Assembly: GCF_009914755.1 (NCBI RefSeq)
Contig: NC_060936.1
Strand: one strand, 5' to 3'
DNA from: the human T2T-CHM13v2.0 reference genome, Homo sapiens
Length of the DNA: 64,000 nt
A model generated the notes under the pieces. The model was not told the origin of the DNA, ran no database searches, and worked only from the letters and a program-made list of their open reading frames with translations. Every line of letters begins with the position of its first letter. Positions within the stretch are counted from its first letter, which is position 1. Both the position numbers and the translations under genes were made by a program. Positions 39,842-59,740 of this stretch are shown in pieces.

Positions 39842-40003
39842 GAATGCCAGGAGATGCATGGAGAGTTCATGGGATCTGCGTGCGGCCATCATGGACCCTA
39901 CACTCCTGATGTCCTCTTTTGGTCCTGTATTCTCTTTTTCACCACCTTCATCCTCTCAAGCACCTTAAAGACGTTTAAGACGAGCCGTTATTTCCCAACC
40001 AGA
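39842..40003 (+). CDS. SLC4A8: SLC4A8 exon 16 (ECQEMHG...KTSRYFPTR)
   Basis: ctccag|GAATGC ... CAGA|gtaggt; 162 nt; ends in phase 0. Confidence 0.96.
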
Positions 40004-50585: not shown

Positions 50586-50699
50586 GTACGCTCCATGGTG
50601 AGTGACTTTGCTGTTTTCCTCACTATCTTCACAATGGTGATTATTGATTTTTTGATTGGAGTCCCATCACCAAAGCTTCAAGTTCCCAGTGTGTTCAAG
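50586..50699 (+). CDS. SLC4A8: SLC4A8 exon 17 (VRSMVSDFAV...PSVFK)
   Basis: tgccag|GTACGC ... CAAG|gtaaac; 114 nt. Confidence 0.96.
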
Positions 50700-54759: not shown

Positions 54760-56533
54760 TTTCAGTCATTCAGCAAATATCAAGGGCCTGATTTGTGCCA
54801 GGAATCCTGCCAGGTGCTGGAAATACAGTGGTGCCAAATACTTACAAGTATAAATCCCTGCCCTGAAAGAGTTTATTCTAGAGGGATAAGACAGATAACA
54901 TGTAGTTAAGAAAATTAGTTAAGAAACAAACATGATAACTACAGAATGTGAATAGTGATATAAAGGAAATACACAGTGCTTTCTGGCACTATAGAGAACT
55001 GAGAGGGGTCTATTTTAGTAGGATGGTCAGAGAAGGCTTCTCTGAGGAGATGCTATTTAAGATGAGGTGGAGGCCAGGCGCGGTGGCTCACACCTGTAAT
55101 CCCAGCACTTTGGGAGGCTGAGGTGGGTGGATCATGAGGTTCGGAGATCGAGACCATCCTGGCTAACACAGTGAAACCTCGTCTCTACTAAAAATACAAA
55201 AACAAAATTAGCCGGGTGTGGTGGCAGGTGGCTGTAGTCCCAGCTACTCAGGCAGGAGGCTGAGGCGGGAGAATGGCGTGAACCCAGGAGGCGGAGCTTG
55301 CAGTGAGCCGAGATCATGCCACTGCACTCCAGCCAGGGCAACAGAGCGAGACTCCATCTCAAAAAAAAAAAAAAAAAAAAAGATGAGGTGGAGCCATGCC
55401 ATGGATGGTGGGACATGGCATGGAAGGAGGGGAGAAAAGCAGTCTAGTCAGGCCCTTAGGTGGGAAAGAGTGATATGTGTTCTACGAAATATCAGGGCCA
55501 TGTGGCTCATGGGCATTGAGTCAAGACAAGAGCACAGTGCAATGAGAAGGAAAGAGAGGCAGGGGCAGATCATGTAGGGCCTTGTCGACAGTGGGCAAGG
55601 TAACCTTTGAAGGGTTTTAACAGGAGAGGGACATGATCCAGCTAGTTTAAAAAGATCACTCTGGCTGAGGTCTAGGGAAGAATAGAAGCAGACAGACCAG
55701 TGAAGCTGTTGCAGGTGACAGATGATGGTGGCTTGGATAAGGAAGCTGGTAGCAGGGACAGATAAAAACGCATGGCTTCTGTATAGCTTGGAGGCAGACC
55801 CAAAGGTCTCAATTGTTGACTGGATGTGGAATGAGGTGAGGAAAATAGAAAAATCGAAGAAACCTGTTAGGTTTCTGACTTGACCATCTGGTGGAGTGTG
55901 ATGGCATTTATTAAGATGGAAAAGATTGTATGATTTTTGTGAGGGGTGGGGCTGTGATCAGATTTGGAGTGAGATGTCTGGGAGTCATCTAAGTGAAGAG
56001 GCTAGAGGAGGGTTCTGGACTAAAATATAAATTTGGGTATAAATTTGGGAGTCAACAGCACATAGGTGGTATTGAAAGCCGAGGGAATAGATGAGAGAAC
56101 TCAGGGAAAAGAGACGACGTAAAAGAGAAGTGGGACATAAGAGCAGAGTTAGAGGTTGGATAGAAGAAGAGGTAGCAACAGAGTCTCAGAAGGAGCTGCC
56201 AGAGAGGTGGGAGGAAAACTAGGGGGATGTGGTATTAGGGAAGCCAAGTAAGGAAAATGTTTCAAGAAAGAGGGATTGGGTAGACACGTCTTGGAAAATG
56301 AAGACTAAGCTAAGGCCATTGGATTTAGCAACATTGGAGGCCTCAGGTTATCTGACAAGAGCAGAGTCAGTGGATTGCATTAGTTTCTGCTGCCTGTGGG
56401 TGATTTAGAAGTAGAAGCAAAAGCAGAAGCTGACCATGATAAAAATCATTTTGTTCTGAAATGAAATGATTACATGTAAGTTAAATTACAGGCCTCCATG
56501 TCTGGCTCTTCCTCCACCCCTGTCTGGGGATGG

Positions 56534-56577
<44 letters not shown>

Positions 56578-56880
56578 CTCTTTAACAGAAATGATGCCTT
56601 TTAAATCTTCCACAATCTCAAAAATCTTCCAAATCCTTAGGGATTTAGTGCATTTTAACATGGAACTTTTTTACTGACCAGTGACTTGAGGCAGGAGTTG
56701 GGGGTATCTTATCAGAGAAGGAATTCAGTGGAACTATAGAGTAGAAATCCAATTATAGGTGGCTAAAGAGTGAATAGGAGATAAGGAAGTAAGGACTGCA
56801 GGCAAATCTTTCAAGAGGTTTTTCTGCGAAGCAAGATGGAAAAATGGCAGTGGCTAGTATGAGAAGTGGGGCTAAAAGAG
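54760..56880 (-). mobile_element. L2 remnant interrupted by an Alu and by the left arm of the inverted duplication
   Basis: tcattcagcaaatat...gtgccagg 3' end, plus gatcactctggctg and ccattggatttagcaac L2 motifs. Confidence 0.7.
55072..55381 (+). mobile_element. Alu (Y-type)
   Basis: TSD aagatgaggtggag. Confidence 0.93.
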
Positions 56881-58187
56881 AGGTTTTTTTTGTTTTGTTT
56901 TGTTTTTGGTACAGATAGAGGATACTTTGAACATTAAAAAAATGTTTTGTGGGTGGAAGGCCTGCATCTGGGAGATTGGGGTGAGAAGGAAACTTTACGG
57001 CTGTATTCCCAGGTGCCAGCCATTCTGGAGCACTGCCTTGTCTCCCTTGCCTCCTCTTCCCTTTTTTTTGGCAAATCTTCAACCACCCCAGCCTGTACCA
57101 CAAATGCCCTTCAAGGGTGAGAACTGAGAGGGATGGGAAGGATTTCTGAACCATCTTCCTGTCCCCTCACTTTCCACTCAACCTTACCACCCACCTCTCC
57201 TGACACCCCTTTCCCACCTCATGTTCCCTGTCCCCAGCCCAACTCCCACTCCCACCTGGTTGAGGCACCATCTGGAAGAGCCTAAACGTTGCTGCTTCTC
57301 CAAGATAGAACCATGAAGGCGCGGCAGTGGCCATCCCTGGGCTTTCCCCTAGCTGCTTCAGGACAATTCTCTTAGGACAACTATTCAGTAGTTCACAAAC
57401 AACATCGAATTGGAATGTCTAATCACTCTACAGCTGGAACATAAAATCCAATGGGGGATTTTCTAATTTTTTGTTTTTTAAAATTTTACTTTAAGTTCTG
57501 GGATACATGTGCAAAACGTGCAGGTTTGTTACCTAGGTATACATGTGCCATGGTGGTTTGCTGCACCTGTCAACCGATCATCTAGGTTTTAAGCCCCACA
57601 TGCATTAGGTATTTGTCCTAATGCTCTCCCTCCCCTTGCCCCCCACCCCCCAACAGGCCCTGGTGTGTGATGTTCCCCTCTCTGTGTCCATGTGTTCTCA
57701 TTGTTCAGCTCCCACTTATGAGTGAGAACATGCAGTGTTTGGTTTTCTGTTCATGTGTTAGTTTGGAGGGATTTTCTAATTCCACAAATTAGATTTGAGA
57801 ATATTTATATAGTCCCAAAAAAACTAAATTATAGTCCAATTTAGTTTTCAGCTCTGAGACTTTCCTTGCCTTGATTCTATAGGCCCAATTTCCCTACCTC
57901 AGAGTCAATCTGAAGATTACCTAGGTTGATAGACATGACGTGATCAGAAAGTCATGTTCAAATACTGTGTGGATGTTCAAGTGCAGTATAATAATGTCGG
58001 TGTTTCCCCCCAGACCATTACCTCTTTGATAAGATACGTCCCCACTCTTGCCCTCAAGCCACTGGTCAGTAAAAAAGGAAGCTTTTTTGGTTCACGTTAA
58101 AATACATCAAATCCCTGAGGAGATGATTGTGAGATTACAGAAGATTTAAAAGGCATTATTTCTATAAGAGAGGGGTGCGTTTGTGTG

Positions 58188-58218
<31 letters not shown>

Positions 58219-58382
58219 ATGTGTGCCCATCCCCATGGAGGAGGAAGAGCCAGATGGGTGAGATGGGAAGTCTAACTTACATGTAATCATTTCATTTCAG
58301 AACCAAATGATTTTTATCATTGTCAGCTTCTGCTTTTGCTTCTACTCCTAAGTCACCCACAGGCAGCAGAAACTAATGCAAT
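56374..58382. repeat. Inverted duplication with arms at 56374-~56724 and ~58017-58382 and a ~1.3 kb spacer
   Basis: Arms align by eye as reverse complements. The outer ~110 nt differ at 4 positions. The (CA)n tract in the left arm matches the (TG)n tract in the right arm. Confidence 0.95.
57469..57765 (-). mobile_element. L1PA 3' fragment within the spacer of the inverted repeat
   Basis: Primate L1 3' end; TSD GGGATTTTCTAATT at 57455-57468 and 57768-57781. Confidence 0.92.
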
Positions 58383-58500
58383 GTGTCTGCAGCTATTTTG
58401 TGACTTTGTTTCATTCTTGGAGATTTAAAAGTGTATATAGTTTTGAGTGTGCTATGATACCAAATTTAATTTCTGGCCTTTCTTGTCCTTTTGTCTTCAG

Positions 58501-58569
58501 TTTATTCCAATGCCAGTACTCTACGGAGTTTTCCTTTACATGGGAGTTTCTTCACTACAGGGAATTCAG
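58501..58569 (+). CDS. SLC4A8: SLC4A8 exon 20 ([23 protein letters not shown])
   Basis: cttcag|TTTATT ... TCAG|gtattg; 69 nt; phase 0-0. Confidence 0.96.
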
Positions 58570-59740
58570 GTATTGTATGGTTCAGCCAGGGCAGTTTCTT
58601 CTCACTGCAAGTTTGCATGTCCTGTCCAGGGAGGGACAGCTCCCCAAGAGAAGCACAACCAGTTCTTGAGAAAATTGTTTCCTAGTCTTGCCACTTAGGC
58701 TATTTTAGACATGTATTTGGATATAGGGAGAAAAACAGCCATGTTGGCAGGAGAGTACAGAGACTTCCAGGGTGGTCTGGCTTGATGTCATGGCTCCAGT
58801 TATTCATTAATTATTCAACAGACAATTTTTTTTTGGCATGTATTAAACATTAGTTGCTTTGCCAGGTGCTAGTAAACTTGGATCTGAAAGGTTGATCAAG
58901 AACCAAACTGGCTTTCACTCATGGACAGATCTAGGTTAGTGCCAGGCTAAAGTATAAAAATGGGGTGTTTAACTTTGGGAGAGGGTTCATTGGCAGAAGA
59001 GATAGGGGAATAGTGGGAGTTGCTCCTGGTAAGGAGATGTCACTTCTTGTTATACTCTGCATTTTTCCATCCATCAACTATTGCTCTAAGTCTTTCAAAA
59101 AGAAAAATCAGGAGCTTGTCATTGATAACTTGGGTATTCCAGATAATATAATAACTTAGGCTGATTATTCTTTGTTTGAATGGAATGTCCTATGGCCATT
59201 CTTTTTTTTCTTTTTTTTTTTTTTCCTATGGCCATTCTTACATACTGAGTTCTACTATGAACTTGGGCAGGTTATTTAATCTCTGGTTCTCTTTTTTCCT
59301 TATTGTAAGGATGATCATTTTTTATATATCTAGGATGTTATGAGGTTTTATTTTATCTTTTCACTATAAATAATCAATGAATGGCTCCAAACTCCTAAAA
59401 CAAGTAAGAAATTTGGTTTTGATAATAAGCAAAAAGATGTAATTGGTTTATTTTGTTTTCAACACCCCCTGAGAAAGAGCTCTCTTAGGAGACACAGCGT
59501 GGGATAAGAGAAAGAAGTTTGAACCTAGAATTAGAAAAGATGGATTCAAATTTTGACTTTGCCACTTAATAACCTTGGCCAAATTGCCTGGTCTTTTAAA
59601 GTCTCAGTTTCCATTTCTGTCCAGAGGAAATGGTGTTACCTACCTTTCAGAGCAGGTAATGTAAGAGATATGAATTGGTCTAACAAAGCTTCTGACCCAG
59701 AATGCCCTCCTGAAAATAAATGCCAGTTCCTTCCTTTCAG

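What the first reader, a model, noticed from the sequence alone, without database searches (positions are those of the whole stretch)
56374..58382. Non-Alu ~350 bp inverted duplication predicting a long dsRNA stem 118 nt upstream of exon 20
Seen: 56374-~56724 is the reverse complement of ~58017-58382. The outer ~110 nt have only 4 differences, one of them a U-G wobble and one an A-C mismatch at A56409. The inner part is much more diverged and has indels. Exon 20 is 69 nt and phase 0-0, so skipping it keeps the frame. Inference: the identity gradient suggests selection on the outer stem or gene conversion. The duplex could be an ADAR substrate or modulate splicing, and the arms could mediate inversion of the spacer.
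Basis: partly seen in the sequence, partly recalled or inferred. Interest (0 to 1): 0.8.

Follow-up and report, generated by a model that had tools for sequence, protein, structure and literature searches.

The report
Old inverted copy inside SLC4A8 intron
A 351-base piece of SLC4A8 intron 19 was long ago copied and pasted backwards about 1 kb upstream, so the intron RNA can fold into a long hairpin, but nothing seen here shows that the hairpin has a function.

Summary
Window 56374-56724 is the reverse complement of 58017-58382. The outer 110 nt are 106/110 identical. The rest differs at 41/190 substitution sites and has indels, and this contrast is significant (p=8.5e-6). The right arm ends 118 nt before the 69-nt, phase 0-0 exon 20.

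The arms are not dispersed repeats. Four whole-genome searches found only the two arms, while control queries recovered old and young repeat families.

New here is the direction of the duplication. The left arm is an insertion flanked by a perfect 7-bp target-site duplication (TCAGTGG), and it splits an older dispersed repeat. A profile built from 14 other copies of that repeat reads straight across the site once the arm is removed. The right arm is therefore the source. There is no poly(A) tail and no L1-type target.

In this assembly the spacer keeps its ancestral orientation. It later gained an ordinary truncated L1 3' end.

The arms are predicted to pair strongly (-176.6 kcal/mol for the outer block). 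I found no evidence for editing, a splicing effect or selection. Differences between the arms show no excess of pair-preserving changes. Gene conversion of the outer block is my preferred reading. Cross-species data would decide, and I could not obtain them.

The parts
56374..56724 (.). Left arm: 351-bp inserted, inverted copy of the right-arm segment
   Evidence: Homology to the reverse complement of 58017-58382. It interrupts an older repeat and is flanked by a 7-bp duplication.
56367..56373 (.). Target-site duplication, copy 1 (TCAGTGG)
   Evidence: Printed. It lies at positions 398-405 of the family profile, which are matched twice in the window.
56725..56731 (.). Target-site duplication, copy 2 (TCAGTGG)
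   Evidence: It is 7/7 identical to copy 1. The source continues differently at this point (3 of 7 bases the same).
58017..58382 (.). Right arm: presumed source segment, 119-484 nt upstream of exon 20
   Evidence: No duplication flanks it. It is unique in the genome apart from the left arm.
56374..56483 (+). Outer high-identity block, left arm (pairs with 58273-58382)
   Evidence: 106/110 identical with no indels. Cofold -176.6 kcal/mol against -42.5 +/- 3.1 for shuffled partners. Longest perfect runs are 31, 30 and 25 bp.
58273..58382 (+). Outer high-identity block, right arm
56535..56575 (.). (CA)n tract in the left arm
   Evidence: Its position matches the (GT)n tract of the right arm in the alignment.
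58175..58226 (.). Interrupted (GT)n tract in the right arm
56032..56373 (+). Host repeat, part before the insertion (old dispersed family; the name LINE-2 is recalled only)
   Evidence: 14 other genomic copies at 71-81% identity. Family profile positions 19-408, E 5e-52.
56725..56829 (+). Host repeat, continuation after the insertion, same orientation
   Evidence: Family profile positions 398-510. With the arm removed, a single hit spans the junction at 179.0 bits, and 0 of 100 shuffled controls reach it.
57455..57781 (-). Later insertion in the spacer: 5'-truncated young repeat with a poly(A) end, between 14-bp direct repeats (57455-57468 and 57768-57781)
   Evidence: 5558 first-look candidates, of which 40 were scored at 92-94% identity. 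5 of 5 fetched copies run on past its right end. The hub table lists 57455-57765 as masked.
58501..58569 (+). SLC4A8 exon 20 (69 nt, phase 0-0), 118 nt downstream of the right arm
   Evidence: Hub annotation; reading frame checked.

Best explanation
This is the relic of a single old mutational event. A roughly 350-bp stretch of SLC4A8 intron 19 (now 58017-58382), which already contained a GT microsatellite, was copied and inserted in reverse orientation about 0.98 kb upstream, into an older dispersed repeat, at a staggered break that left a 7-bp target-site duplication. That part is shown. Both copies then decayed at about the neutral rate: 21.6% substitution differences plus indels, which by recalled primate rates means tens of millions of years. 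The exception is the outer 110 bp. I infer that these were homogenised later by gene conversion between the arms, and that the conversion stopped at a badly diverged patch at 56484-56500. A truncated LINE-1 3' end entered the spacer still later. In the pre-mRNA the arms should pair into an imperfect duplex of about 300 bp whose outer 110 bp are nearly perfect. This would loop out 1.3 kb of intron. It would probably attract some promiscuous ADAR editing in the nucleus before the intron is degraded. I take that duplex to be a by-product of the duplication and not a selected device.
For: The insertion and its direction are supported as follows. TCAGTGG lies on both sides of 56374-56724. A profile built from 14 other genomic copies of the flanking repeat, without the window, matches 56032-56376 (profile 19-408, E 5e-52) and 56724-56829 (profile 398-510), so positions 398-405 are used twice. 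With the arm and one duplicate removed, there is one hit over profile 19-509 reaching 97 nt past the junction, at 179.0 bits against 165.9 bits for the filled site. None of 100 shuffled controls reach it (maximum 168.8). The downstream part alone beats 200 of 200 shuffles. In 2 of 14 copies a single BLAST alignment crosses the junction by at least 20 nt, and in a third by 18 nt. The pair is unique: searches found only the two arms, at 86-89% and 74% identity. The same tool found 14 old copies of the neighbouring repeat and thousands of candidates for the young repeat. The gradient is 4/110 against 41/190, p=8.5e-6. If only one arm were constrained, P(<=4 differences)=0.006. There is no sign of selection for pairing: wobble-compatible differences are 1/4 outer and 13/41 inner. 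Folding: -176.6 kcal/mol for the outer block against -42.5 +/- 3.1 for shuffles; in the minimum-energy fold of the whole 2009 nt, 306 arm-to-arm pairs are kept, including 107 in the outer 110-nt block.
Against: Gene conversion is inferred only. No other species or haplotype could be examined, so purifying selection on the outer block is not excluded. A conversion tract that abuts the very edge of the homology is somewhat awkward mechanistically. The second profile hit is weak on its own (E 0.039), and only 2 of 14 family copies give a single BLAST alignment across the junction. The copying mechanism is open: the insert has a target-site duplication but no poly(A), no TTTT/A-like target and no microhomology at the junctions. 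It therefore fits neither class of templated insertion described in PMC5110952 (passages). The genome search misses very old copies: the downstream part of the host repeat itself gave no hit. So the source segment could still contain an ancient repeat. All dating rests on recalled substitution rates.
Confidence: 0.6

Rival explanations
1. The outer 110-bp stem is kept by natural selection as a functional long-range RNA structure. It might be an ADAR or dsRNA-binding-protein docking site, or a loop that shortens intron 19 and hides cryptic splice signals or a pyrimidine tract upstream of exon 20.
For: Divergence is six-fold lower in the outer block, and lower than expected even if one arm alone were constrained (P=0.006). 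The predicted stability is very high. The stem would bury a GTAAGT at 56476-56481, an AG-ending pyrimidine run at 58290-58300 and a pyrimidine-rich tract at 58327-58349 (read).
Against: Three of the four outer differences break pairs, and wobble changes are not enriched. The structure arose from a random-looking insertion. No functional element is annotated there in the hub table. SLC4A8 does not occur in the held supplement text of two catalogues of long dsRNA or conserved complementary regions, though those files may not contain the full lists. Intronic inverted duplicates are very common and are mostly without known function (PMC7006430, passages).
Confidence: 0.12
2. The two arms are independent copies of one dispersed repeat family, or the terminal inverted repeats of a DNA transposon about 2 kb long.
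For: Inverted pairs in human introns are usually repeats. The genome search tool is not fully sensitive to old families.
Against: Only the two arms were found genome-wide in four searches. Old families at about 70% identity to each other could not give arms that are 80-96% alike, and young families would have been found (controls). The sequences flanking the whole unit do not form a duplication, whereas the left arm alone is flanked by one. Both arms share a microsatellite at the same place.
Confidence: 0.03
3. The duplication is young, with its age given by the 3.6% outer divergence, and the inner part diverged quickly because the microsatellite and its surroundings are hypermutable or were copied with errors.
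For: The inner part contains a long dinucleotide repeat and many indels. The 7-bp duplication is still perfect.
Against: About 20% divergence persists up to 150 nt from the microsatellite (29 mismatches in 144 compared sites at 56576-56724). The outer and inner blocks have similar composition and almost no CpG. From general knowledge, not tested here, no known polymerase error rate gives 20% differences.
Confidence: 0.05
4. The copy was made by reverse transcription of local intronic RNA by LINE-1 ORF2 protein acting in trans (a class 1-type templated insertion), and not by DNA-templated repair.
For: A target-site duplication of at least 5 bp is the hallmark of class 1 events, and intronic fragments are known templates (PMC5110952, passages). 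The template lies in the same transcribed intron.
Against: Homology to the source starts and ends exactly at the duplicated heptamer, so there is no room for a poly(A) tail. The target is not TTTT/A-like.
Confidence: 0.15

Closest known systems
Inverted-repeat Alu pairs and other intronic inverted duplicated sequences that form intramolecular dsRNA (ADAR substrates)
   Same: Two reverse-complementary segments lie in one pre-mRNA within about 2 kb and are predicted to form a long duplex. Such structures are abundant in pre-mRNAs and are tolerated there (PMC7006430, passages).
   Different: The arms are single-copy sequence, not mobile elements. They arose from one local copy event. At 110 bp/96% and 351 bp/80% the pair falls below the '>300 bp and >96%' class that the paper singles out.
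Templated sequence insertions, class 1 and class 2 (Onozawa and Aplan, PMC5110952)
   Same: A piece of unique genomic sequence is copied and inserted elsewhere. A duplication of at least 5 bp flanks it, as in class 1. There is no poly(A) tail, as in class 2.
   Different: It is a hybrid of the two classes: a duplication without poly(A) or a TTTT/A target. The template is local (about 1 kb away, in the same intron) and not distant, and the copy is inverted.
Palindrome and inverted-repeat arms homogenised by arm-to-arm gene conversion, such as sex-chromosome palindromes (recalled, not looked up here)
   Same: Part of the arms is far more alike than the age of the duplication predicts.
   Different: The scale is 110 bp, not kilobases to megabases. 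Only the outer third is homogenised. Conversion is inferred, not shown.
Conserved long-range intronic RNA structures that affect splicing (catalogue of conserved complementary regions, PMC8052449; abstract start and supplement search only)
   Same: Complementary intronic segments could loop out part of an intron next to an exon.
   Different: Such structures are typically short and are defined by cross-species conservation, which could not be tested here. SLC4A8 was not found in the held supplement text.

Membership tests
Pair of dispersed repeats in inverted orientation (e.g. inverted Alu pair) | Each arm belongs to a multi-copy family | tested here: not met
   Four whole-genome searches found only the two arms. 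The same tool found 14 copies of the neighbouring old repeat and 5558 candidates for the young repeat. It missed very old copies.
Pair of dispersed repeats in inverted orientation (e.g. inverted Alu pair) | Opposite orientation within one transcript, a few kb apart | tested here: met
   both arms lie in intron 19 (hub table).
DNA transposon with terminal inverted repeats | Target-site duplication flanking the whole unit | tested here: not met
   The outer flanks end in ...GTCAGTGG and start with GTGTCTGC.... The duplication flanks the left arm alone.
DNA transposon with terminal inverted repeats | Other copies in the genome | tested here: not met
   The arms and the spacer stretches 56725-57452 and 57783-58174 are unique, apart from low-complexity hits.
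Class 1 templated insertion (LINE-1 ORF2-mediated) | Target-site duplication of at least 5 bp | tested here: met
   7-bp TCAGTGG at 56367-56373 and 56725-56731.
Class 1 templated insertion (LINE-1 ORF2-mediated) | Poly(A) tail and an upstream polyadenylation signal | tested here: not met
   Homology to the source abuts the duplication at both ends.
Class 1 templated insertion (LINE-1 ORF2-mediated) | Insertion at a TTTT/A-like site | tested here: not met
   The target reads ...AGAG TCAGTGG AACT....
Class 2 templated insertion (double-strand-break patch) | No target-site duplication; microhomology, microdeletion or untemplated bases at the junctions | tested here: not met
   A perfect 7-bp duplication is present, and no microhomology is visible at either junction.
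ADAR substrate / editing-enriched dsRNA | Long, nearly perfect intramolecular duplex | tested here: met
   In silico only. 107 pairs within the outer 110-nt block, perfect runs of 31, 30 and 25 bp, -176.6 kcal/mol.
ADAR substrate / editing-enriched dsRNA | A-to-G mismatches in RNA reads at the locus | not testable with these tools
   No RNA-seq or editing database was available. The one paper holding both 'SLC4A8' and 'A-to-I' reports coding sites only, in the passages seen.
Conserved long-range RNA structure | Both arms conserved across species, with compensatory changes | not testable with these tools
   No other eukaryotic genome is held. Within human, the differences show no excess of pair-preserving changes.
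Inverted-repeat arms under concerted evolution (gene conversion) | Arm-to-arm identity above what the age of the duplication predicts | tested here: met
   Outer 4/110 against inner 41/190, p=8.5e-6. P=0.006 even under half the inner rate.
Inverted-repeat arms under concerted evolution (gene conversion) | Arms within a species more alike than orthologous arms between species | not testable with these tools
   No orthologous sequences were available.

The most novel reading that the evidence does not exclude
The outer 110-bp stem is held by selection and not by gene conversion. On this reading, a chance local inverted insertion was co-opted in primates as a long-range RNA switch in a neuronal bicarbonate transporter gene. 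Pairing would loop out 1.3 kb of intron 19 and bury a consensus-like 5' splice site in the left arm, along with a cryptic 3' splice site and a pyrimidine-rich tract 150-210 nt upstream of exon 20. Editing or unwinding of the stem would then tune intron 19 removal or exon 20 inclusion.
Probability: 0.1. Interest if true: 0.6.

Novelty: new member of a known kind. Interest (0 to 1): 0.3.

Why it matters
This is a clean, datable example of how unique, non-transposon sequence can create a long intronic hairpin. The insertion site, target-site duplication, source and direction can all be read from one genome. The junctions do not fit the two published classes of templated insertion, which is of modest interest for mutation mechanisms. 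If the outer stem proved to be under selection, it would be a rare non-repeat, lineage-specific long-range RNA structure next to an exon that encodes a transmembrane segment of SLC4A8. As things stand it is most likely a neutral relic. Its practical value is as a candidate non-Alu ADAR substrate that is easy to check in brain total-RNA data.

Tried and rejected
- Rfam scan of 55800-59000. Only sub-threshold matches appeared. SCARNA7 scored 24.9 and 23.5 bits against a gathering score of 65, mirrored on the two arms across the dinucleotide repeat. I treat these as low-complexity chance hits.
- Coding reading of the outer block. From reading by eye, one orientation is closed in all three frames and the other has one open frame. 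The four arm differences would give 3 replacement changes and 1 silent change, so there is no sign of coding constraint. This was not run through a tool.
- L1-type retro-insertion of the arm. There is no poly(A) tail and no TTTT/A target.
- First alignment of the filled site with family copies. MAFFT did not open the long gap, so it was uninformative.
- First 'empty site'. It was cut 4 nt off register and was redone correctly.
- Genome search with the downstream part of the host repeat found nothing but itself. This shows the limit of that tool, and I used a profile instead.
- Literature. 'SLC4A8' with 'inverted repeat' listed 14 papers. Judging by titles and abstract starts, 13 concern SLC4 proteins and other transporters or channels (structure, pharmacology, reviews) and one concerns endogenous retroviruses. 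None appears to concern this DNA repeat. 'SLC4A8' with 'A-to-I' gave 1 paper, with coding sites only in the passages seen.
- A pattern scan for the macaque coding edit cluster in the window found nothing relevant; the one match contains stop codons.
- SLC4A8 is absent from the held supplement text of PMC7006430 and PMC8052449.
They might list a duplex here.
- The search of earlier findings was not open.
Full report
**1. The observation**

The repeat finder gives arms 56374-56483 and 58273-58382: 110 nt, 96% complementary, 1789 nt apart. Alignment of 56340-56760 with the reverse complement of 57980-58420 extends the homology to 56374-56724 against 58017-58382. blastn within the window gives 79.8% over 376 aligned columns, E 1.3e-83.

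The four differences in the outer block are at 56404, 56409, 56435 and 56452.

Both arms hold a dinucleotide repeat at the corresponding position: a pure (CA)n at 56535-56575 and an interrupted (GT)n at 58175-58226. The microsatellite was therefore already present when the segment was copied.

The right arm ends 118 nt before exon 20 (58501-58569). That exon is 69 nt and begins and ends on codon boundaries. It encodes [23 protein letters not shown].

**2. The gradient**

The outer block has 106 matches, 4 mismatches and no gap columns. The inner blocks, leaving out the microsatellite, have 149 matches, 41 mismatches and 25 gap columns. Fisher's test on substitutions gives p=8.5e-6.

Jukes-Cantor distances are 0.254 for the inner part and 0.037 for the outer part. 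Even if only one arm were constrained and the other were free, four or fewer differences in 110 sites has P=0.006. Composition does not explain the contrast. The outer block and the larger inner block are both 34-38% G+C, and CpG is almost absent: 2 in the right inner block and none elsewhere. The change is abrupt, and a badly diverged patch lies directly inside the block at 56484-56500.

**3. Not a dispersed repeat**

The window's own assembly was searched with four queries: the left outer part, the left inner part, the right outer part with its flank, and the right inner part with its flank. Each search found only the query itself and the other arm, at 86%, 74%, 89% and 74% identity.

The same tool does find repeats. 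The 224 nt just left of the arm gave 14 other copies at 71-81% identity. The masked stretch in the spacer gave 5558 first-look candidates, of which 40 were scored at 92-94%. The tool is not fully sensitive, since the downstream part of the host repeat gave no hit. That gap does not rescue the repeat-pair idea. Members of a family old enough to be missed could not be 80-96% alike, and a family young enough to give that identity would have been found.

Against the rest of the window, which holds many Alu-sized masked stretches according to the hub table, the arms have no match better than E 0.06.

**4. What it is: an insertion with a target-site duplication**

The heptamer TCAGTGG lies directly before the left arm (56367-56373) and directly after it (56725-56731).

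The sequence left of the arm belongs to an old dispersed family. I recognise it from memory as the 3' region of LINE-2, but no tool named it. I aligned the 14 genomic copies and built a profile from them without the window. Run against 55700-57400, the profile gave two collinear hits on the + strand:
- profile 19-408 on 56032-56376 (E 5e-52);
- profile 398-510 on 56724-56829 (E 0.039).

Profile positions 398-405 are thus used twice, once at each copy of the heptamer.

When the arm and one heptamer are removed by computation, the profile gives a single hit over positions 19-509 that runs 97 nt past the junction. It scores 179.0 bits against 165.9 bits for the real, filled sequence. None of 100 controls with the downstream part shuffled reached this score (maximum 168.8). 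The downstream part alone scored above all 200 shuffles.

At the level of single copies the evidence is thinner. In 2 of 14 copies (L016, L022) one BLAST alignment crosses the junction by at least 20 nt, and in L017 by 18 nt. The other 11 alignments stop before the junction or within a nucleotide of it, because the copies are only 62-78% identical to the window.

The right arm has no flanking duplication: its flanks end in ...CCAGACC and start with GTGTCTG.... The left arm is therefore the secondary copy and the right arm is the source, unless a lost third locus was the source of both.

**5. How the copy was made**

Homology to the source begins at the first base after one heptamer and ends at the last base before the other. 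There is no room for a poly(A) tail. The target (...AGAG TCAGTGG AACT...) is not like the TTTT/A site of LINE-1 endonuclease, and I see no microhomology at either junction.

In the scheme of Onozawa and Aplan (PMC5110952, passages read), class 1 events have a duplication of at least 5 bp, poly(A) and a TTTT/A target. Class 2 events have none of these and show end-joining features. This event has the duplication only.

The template lay about 0.98 kb away in the same intron. That figure is the present spacer of 1292 nt minus 313 nt of later insertion. The copy is inverted. I infer repair of a staggered break with a locally templated patch. Whether the template was DNA or RNA is open.

**6. Later history**

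The spacer contains a member of a young, very abundant family at 57469-57767, between perfect 14-bp direct repeats at 57455-57468 and 57768-57781. In 5 of 5 fetched copies the family sequence runs on beyond the window copy's right end, while the sequence left of the T-rich end differs in every copy. This is an ordinary 5'-truncated insertion on the minus strand, with its poly(A) end at the left. From memory it is a LINE-1 3' end. Its 92-94% identity to other copies, against 78% between the inner arms, places it after the duplication.

Because the host repeat continues in the same orientation directly after the left arm, the spacer in this assembly has its ancestral orientation. No net inversion between the arms has occurred.

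By recalled primate substitution rates, the inner distance corresponds to several tens of millions of years, and the outer distance to roughly 10-20 million years with a wide error from four events.

**7. RNA**

The outer blocks cofold at -176.6 kcal/mol, against -42.5 +/- 3.1 for 100 shuffled partners. The whole arms cofold at -482.2 kcal/mol. In the minimum-energy fold of the complete 2009 nt, 306 arm-to-arm pairs form, including 107 in the outer 110-nt block. Perfect runs are 31, 30 and 25 bp.

The branch-point and polypyrimidine region of exon 20 lies outside the stem. The stem would bury three features (all read):
- a GTAAGT at 56476-56481;
- an AG-ending pyrimidine run at 58290-58300;
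- a pyrimidine-rich tract at 58327-58349.

A56409, which sits opposite C, has a 5' G. From general knowledge this is a poor ADAR context.

**8. Selection or conversion**

Among the differences between the arms, changes that keep a wobble pair number 1 of 4 in the outer block and 13 of 41 in the inner blocks. That is about the one third expected without any selection for pairing. This fits a neutral structure whose outer part was homogenised by gene conversion, with the diverged patch at 56484-56500 as a likely barrier to the tract. Four differences are too few to exclude selection, and no orthologous sequence could be obtained with these tools.

**9. Literature**

In the library searched, I found no paper linking SLC4A8 to this repeat (judged from titles and abstract starts). 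The single paper with 'SLC4A8' and 'A-to-I' (PMC12203800) reports a primate-only coding site, R713G, in the passage read. Its supplement lists a cluster of macaque coding sites in the passages seen. None of these could be placed in the repeat.

SLC4A8 is absent from the held supplement text of PMC7006430 and PMC8052449; those files may not contain the full catalogues. PMC7006430 (passages) shows that inverted duplicates are common in pre-mRNAs and that the class of concern is longer than 300 bp at more than 96% identity. This pair does not reach that class.

**10. Verdict**

The anatomy is now explained as a one-off, local, inverted, templated insertion with a 7-bp duplication, later partly homogenised. 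The functional ideas (ADAR target, splicing control, inversion) remain untested, and the internal evidence leans neutral. It is a new member of known kinds, with moderate-to-low interest.

Noticed in passing
window 57455-57781: Ordinary 5'-truncated insertion of a young, very abundant repeat on the minus strand. From memory it is a LINE-1 3' end with poly(A). It lies between perfect 14-bp direct repeats (GGGATTTTCTAATT). It lengthened the spacer by 313 nt after the arms were duplicated.
   Followed up: yes
window 56032-56373 and 56725-56829: An old dispersed repeat, with at least 14 other genomic copies at 71-81% identity. I recall it as the LINE-2 3' region, but no tool named it. It is split by the left arm.
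   Followed up: yes
SLC4A8 coding exons, probably 39842-40003 or 50586-50699; not placed: PMC12203800 reports a primate-only recoding edit, SLC4A8 R713G. Its supplement lists a macaque cluster (H704R, P705P, S712G, Q743Q) within about 120 nt. The complementary sequence that would make these exonic sites double-stranded is not identified, and these sites are not in the inverted repeat.
   Followed up: partly
window 56476-56481, 58290-58300, 58327-58349: On the gene's strand the left arm carries a consensus-like 5' splice site (GTAAGT). The right arm carries an AG-ending pyrimidine run and a 23-nt pyrimidine-rich tract. All three would be buried in the predicted stem. No splice-site scoring tool was available.
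   Followed up: no
window 56481-56673 (-) and 58089-58252 (+): Mirror-image sub-threshold Rfam matches to SCARNA7 (24.9 and 23.5 bits; gathering score 65) across the dinucleotide repeats. They are most likely a low-complexity artefact.
   Followed up: no
window 56873-56905: A T-rich run (T8 GTTTT GTTTT GTTTTT) just after the end of the host repeat gave short 92-100% matches on six other chromosomes. It is low complexity and of unknown origin.
   Followed up: no
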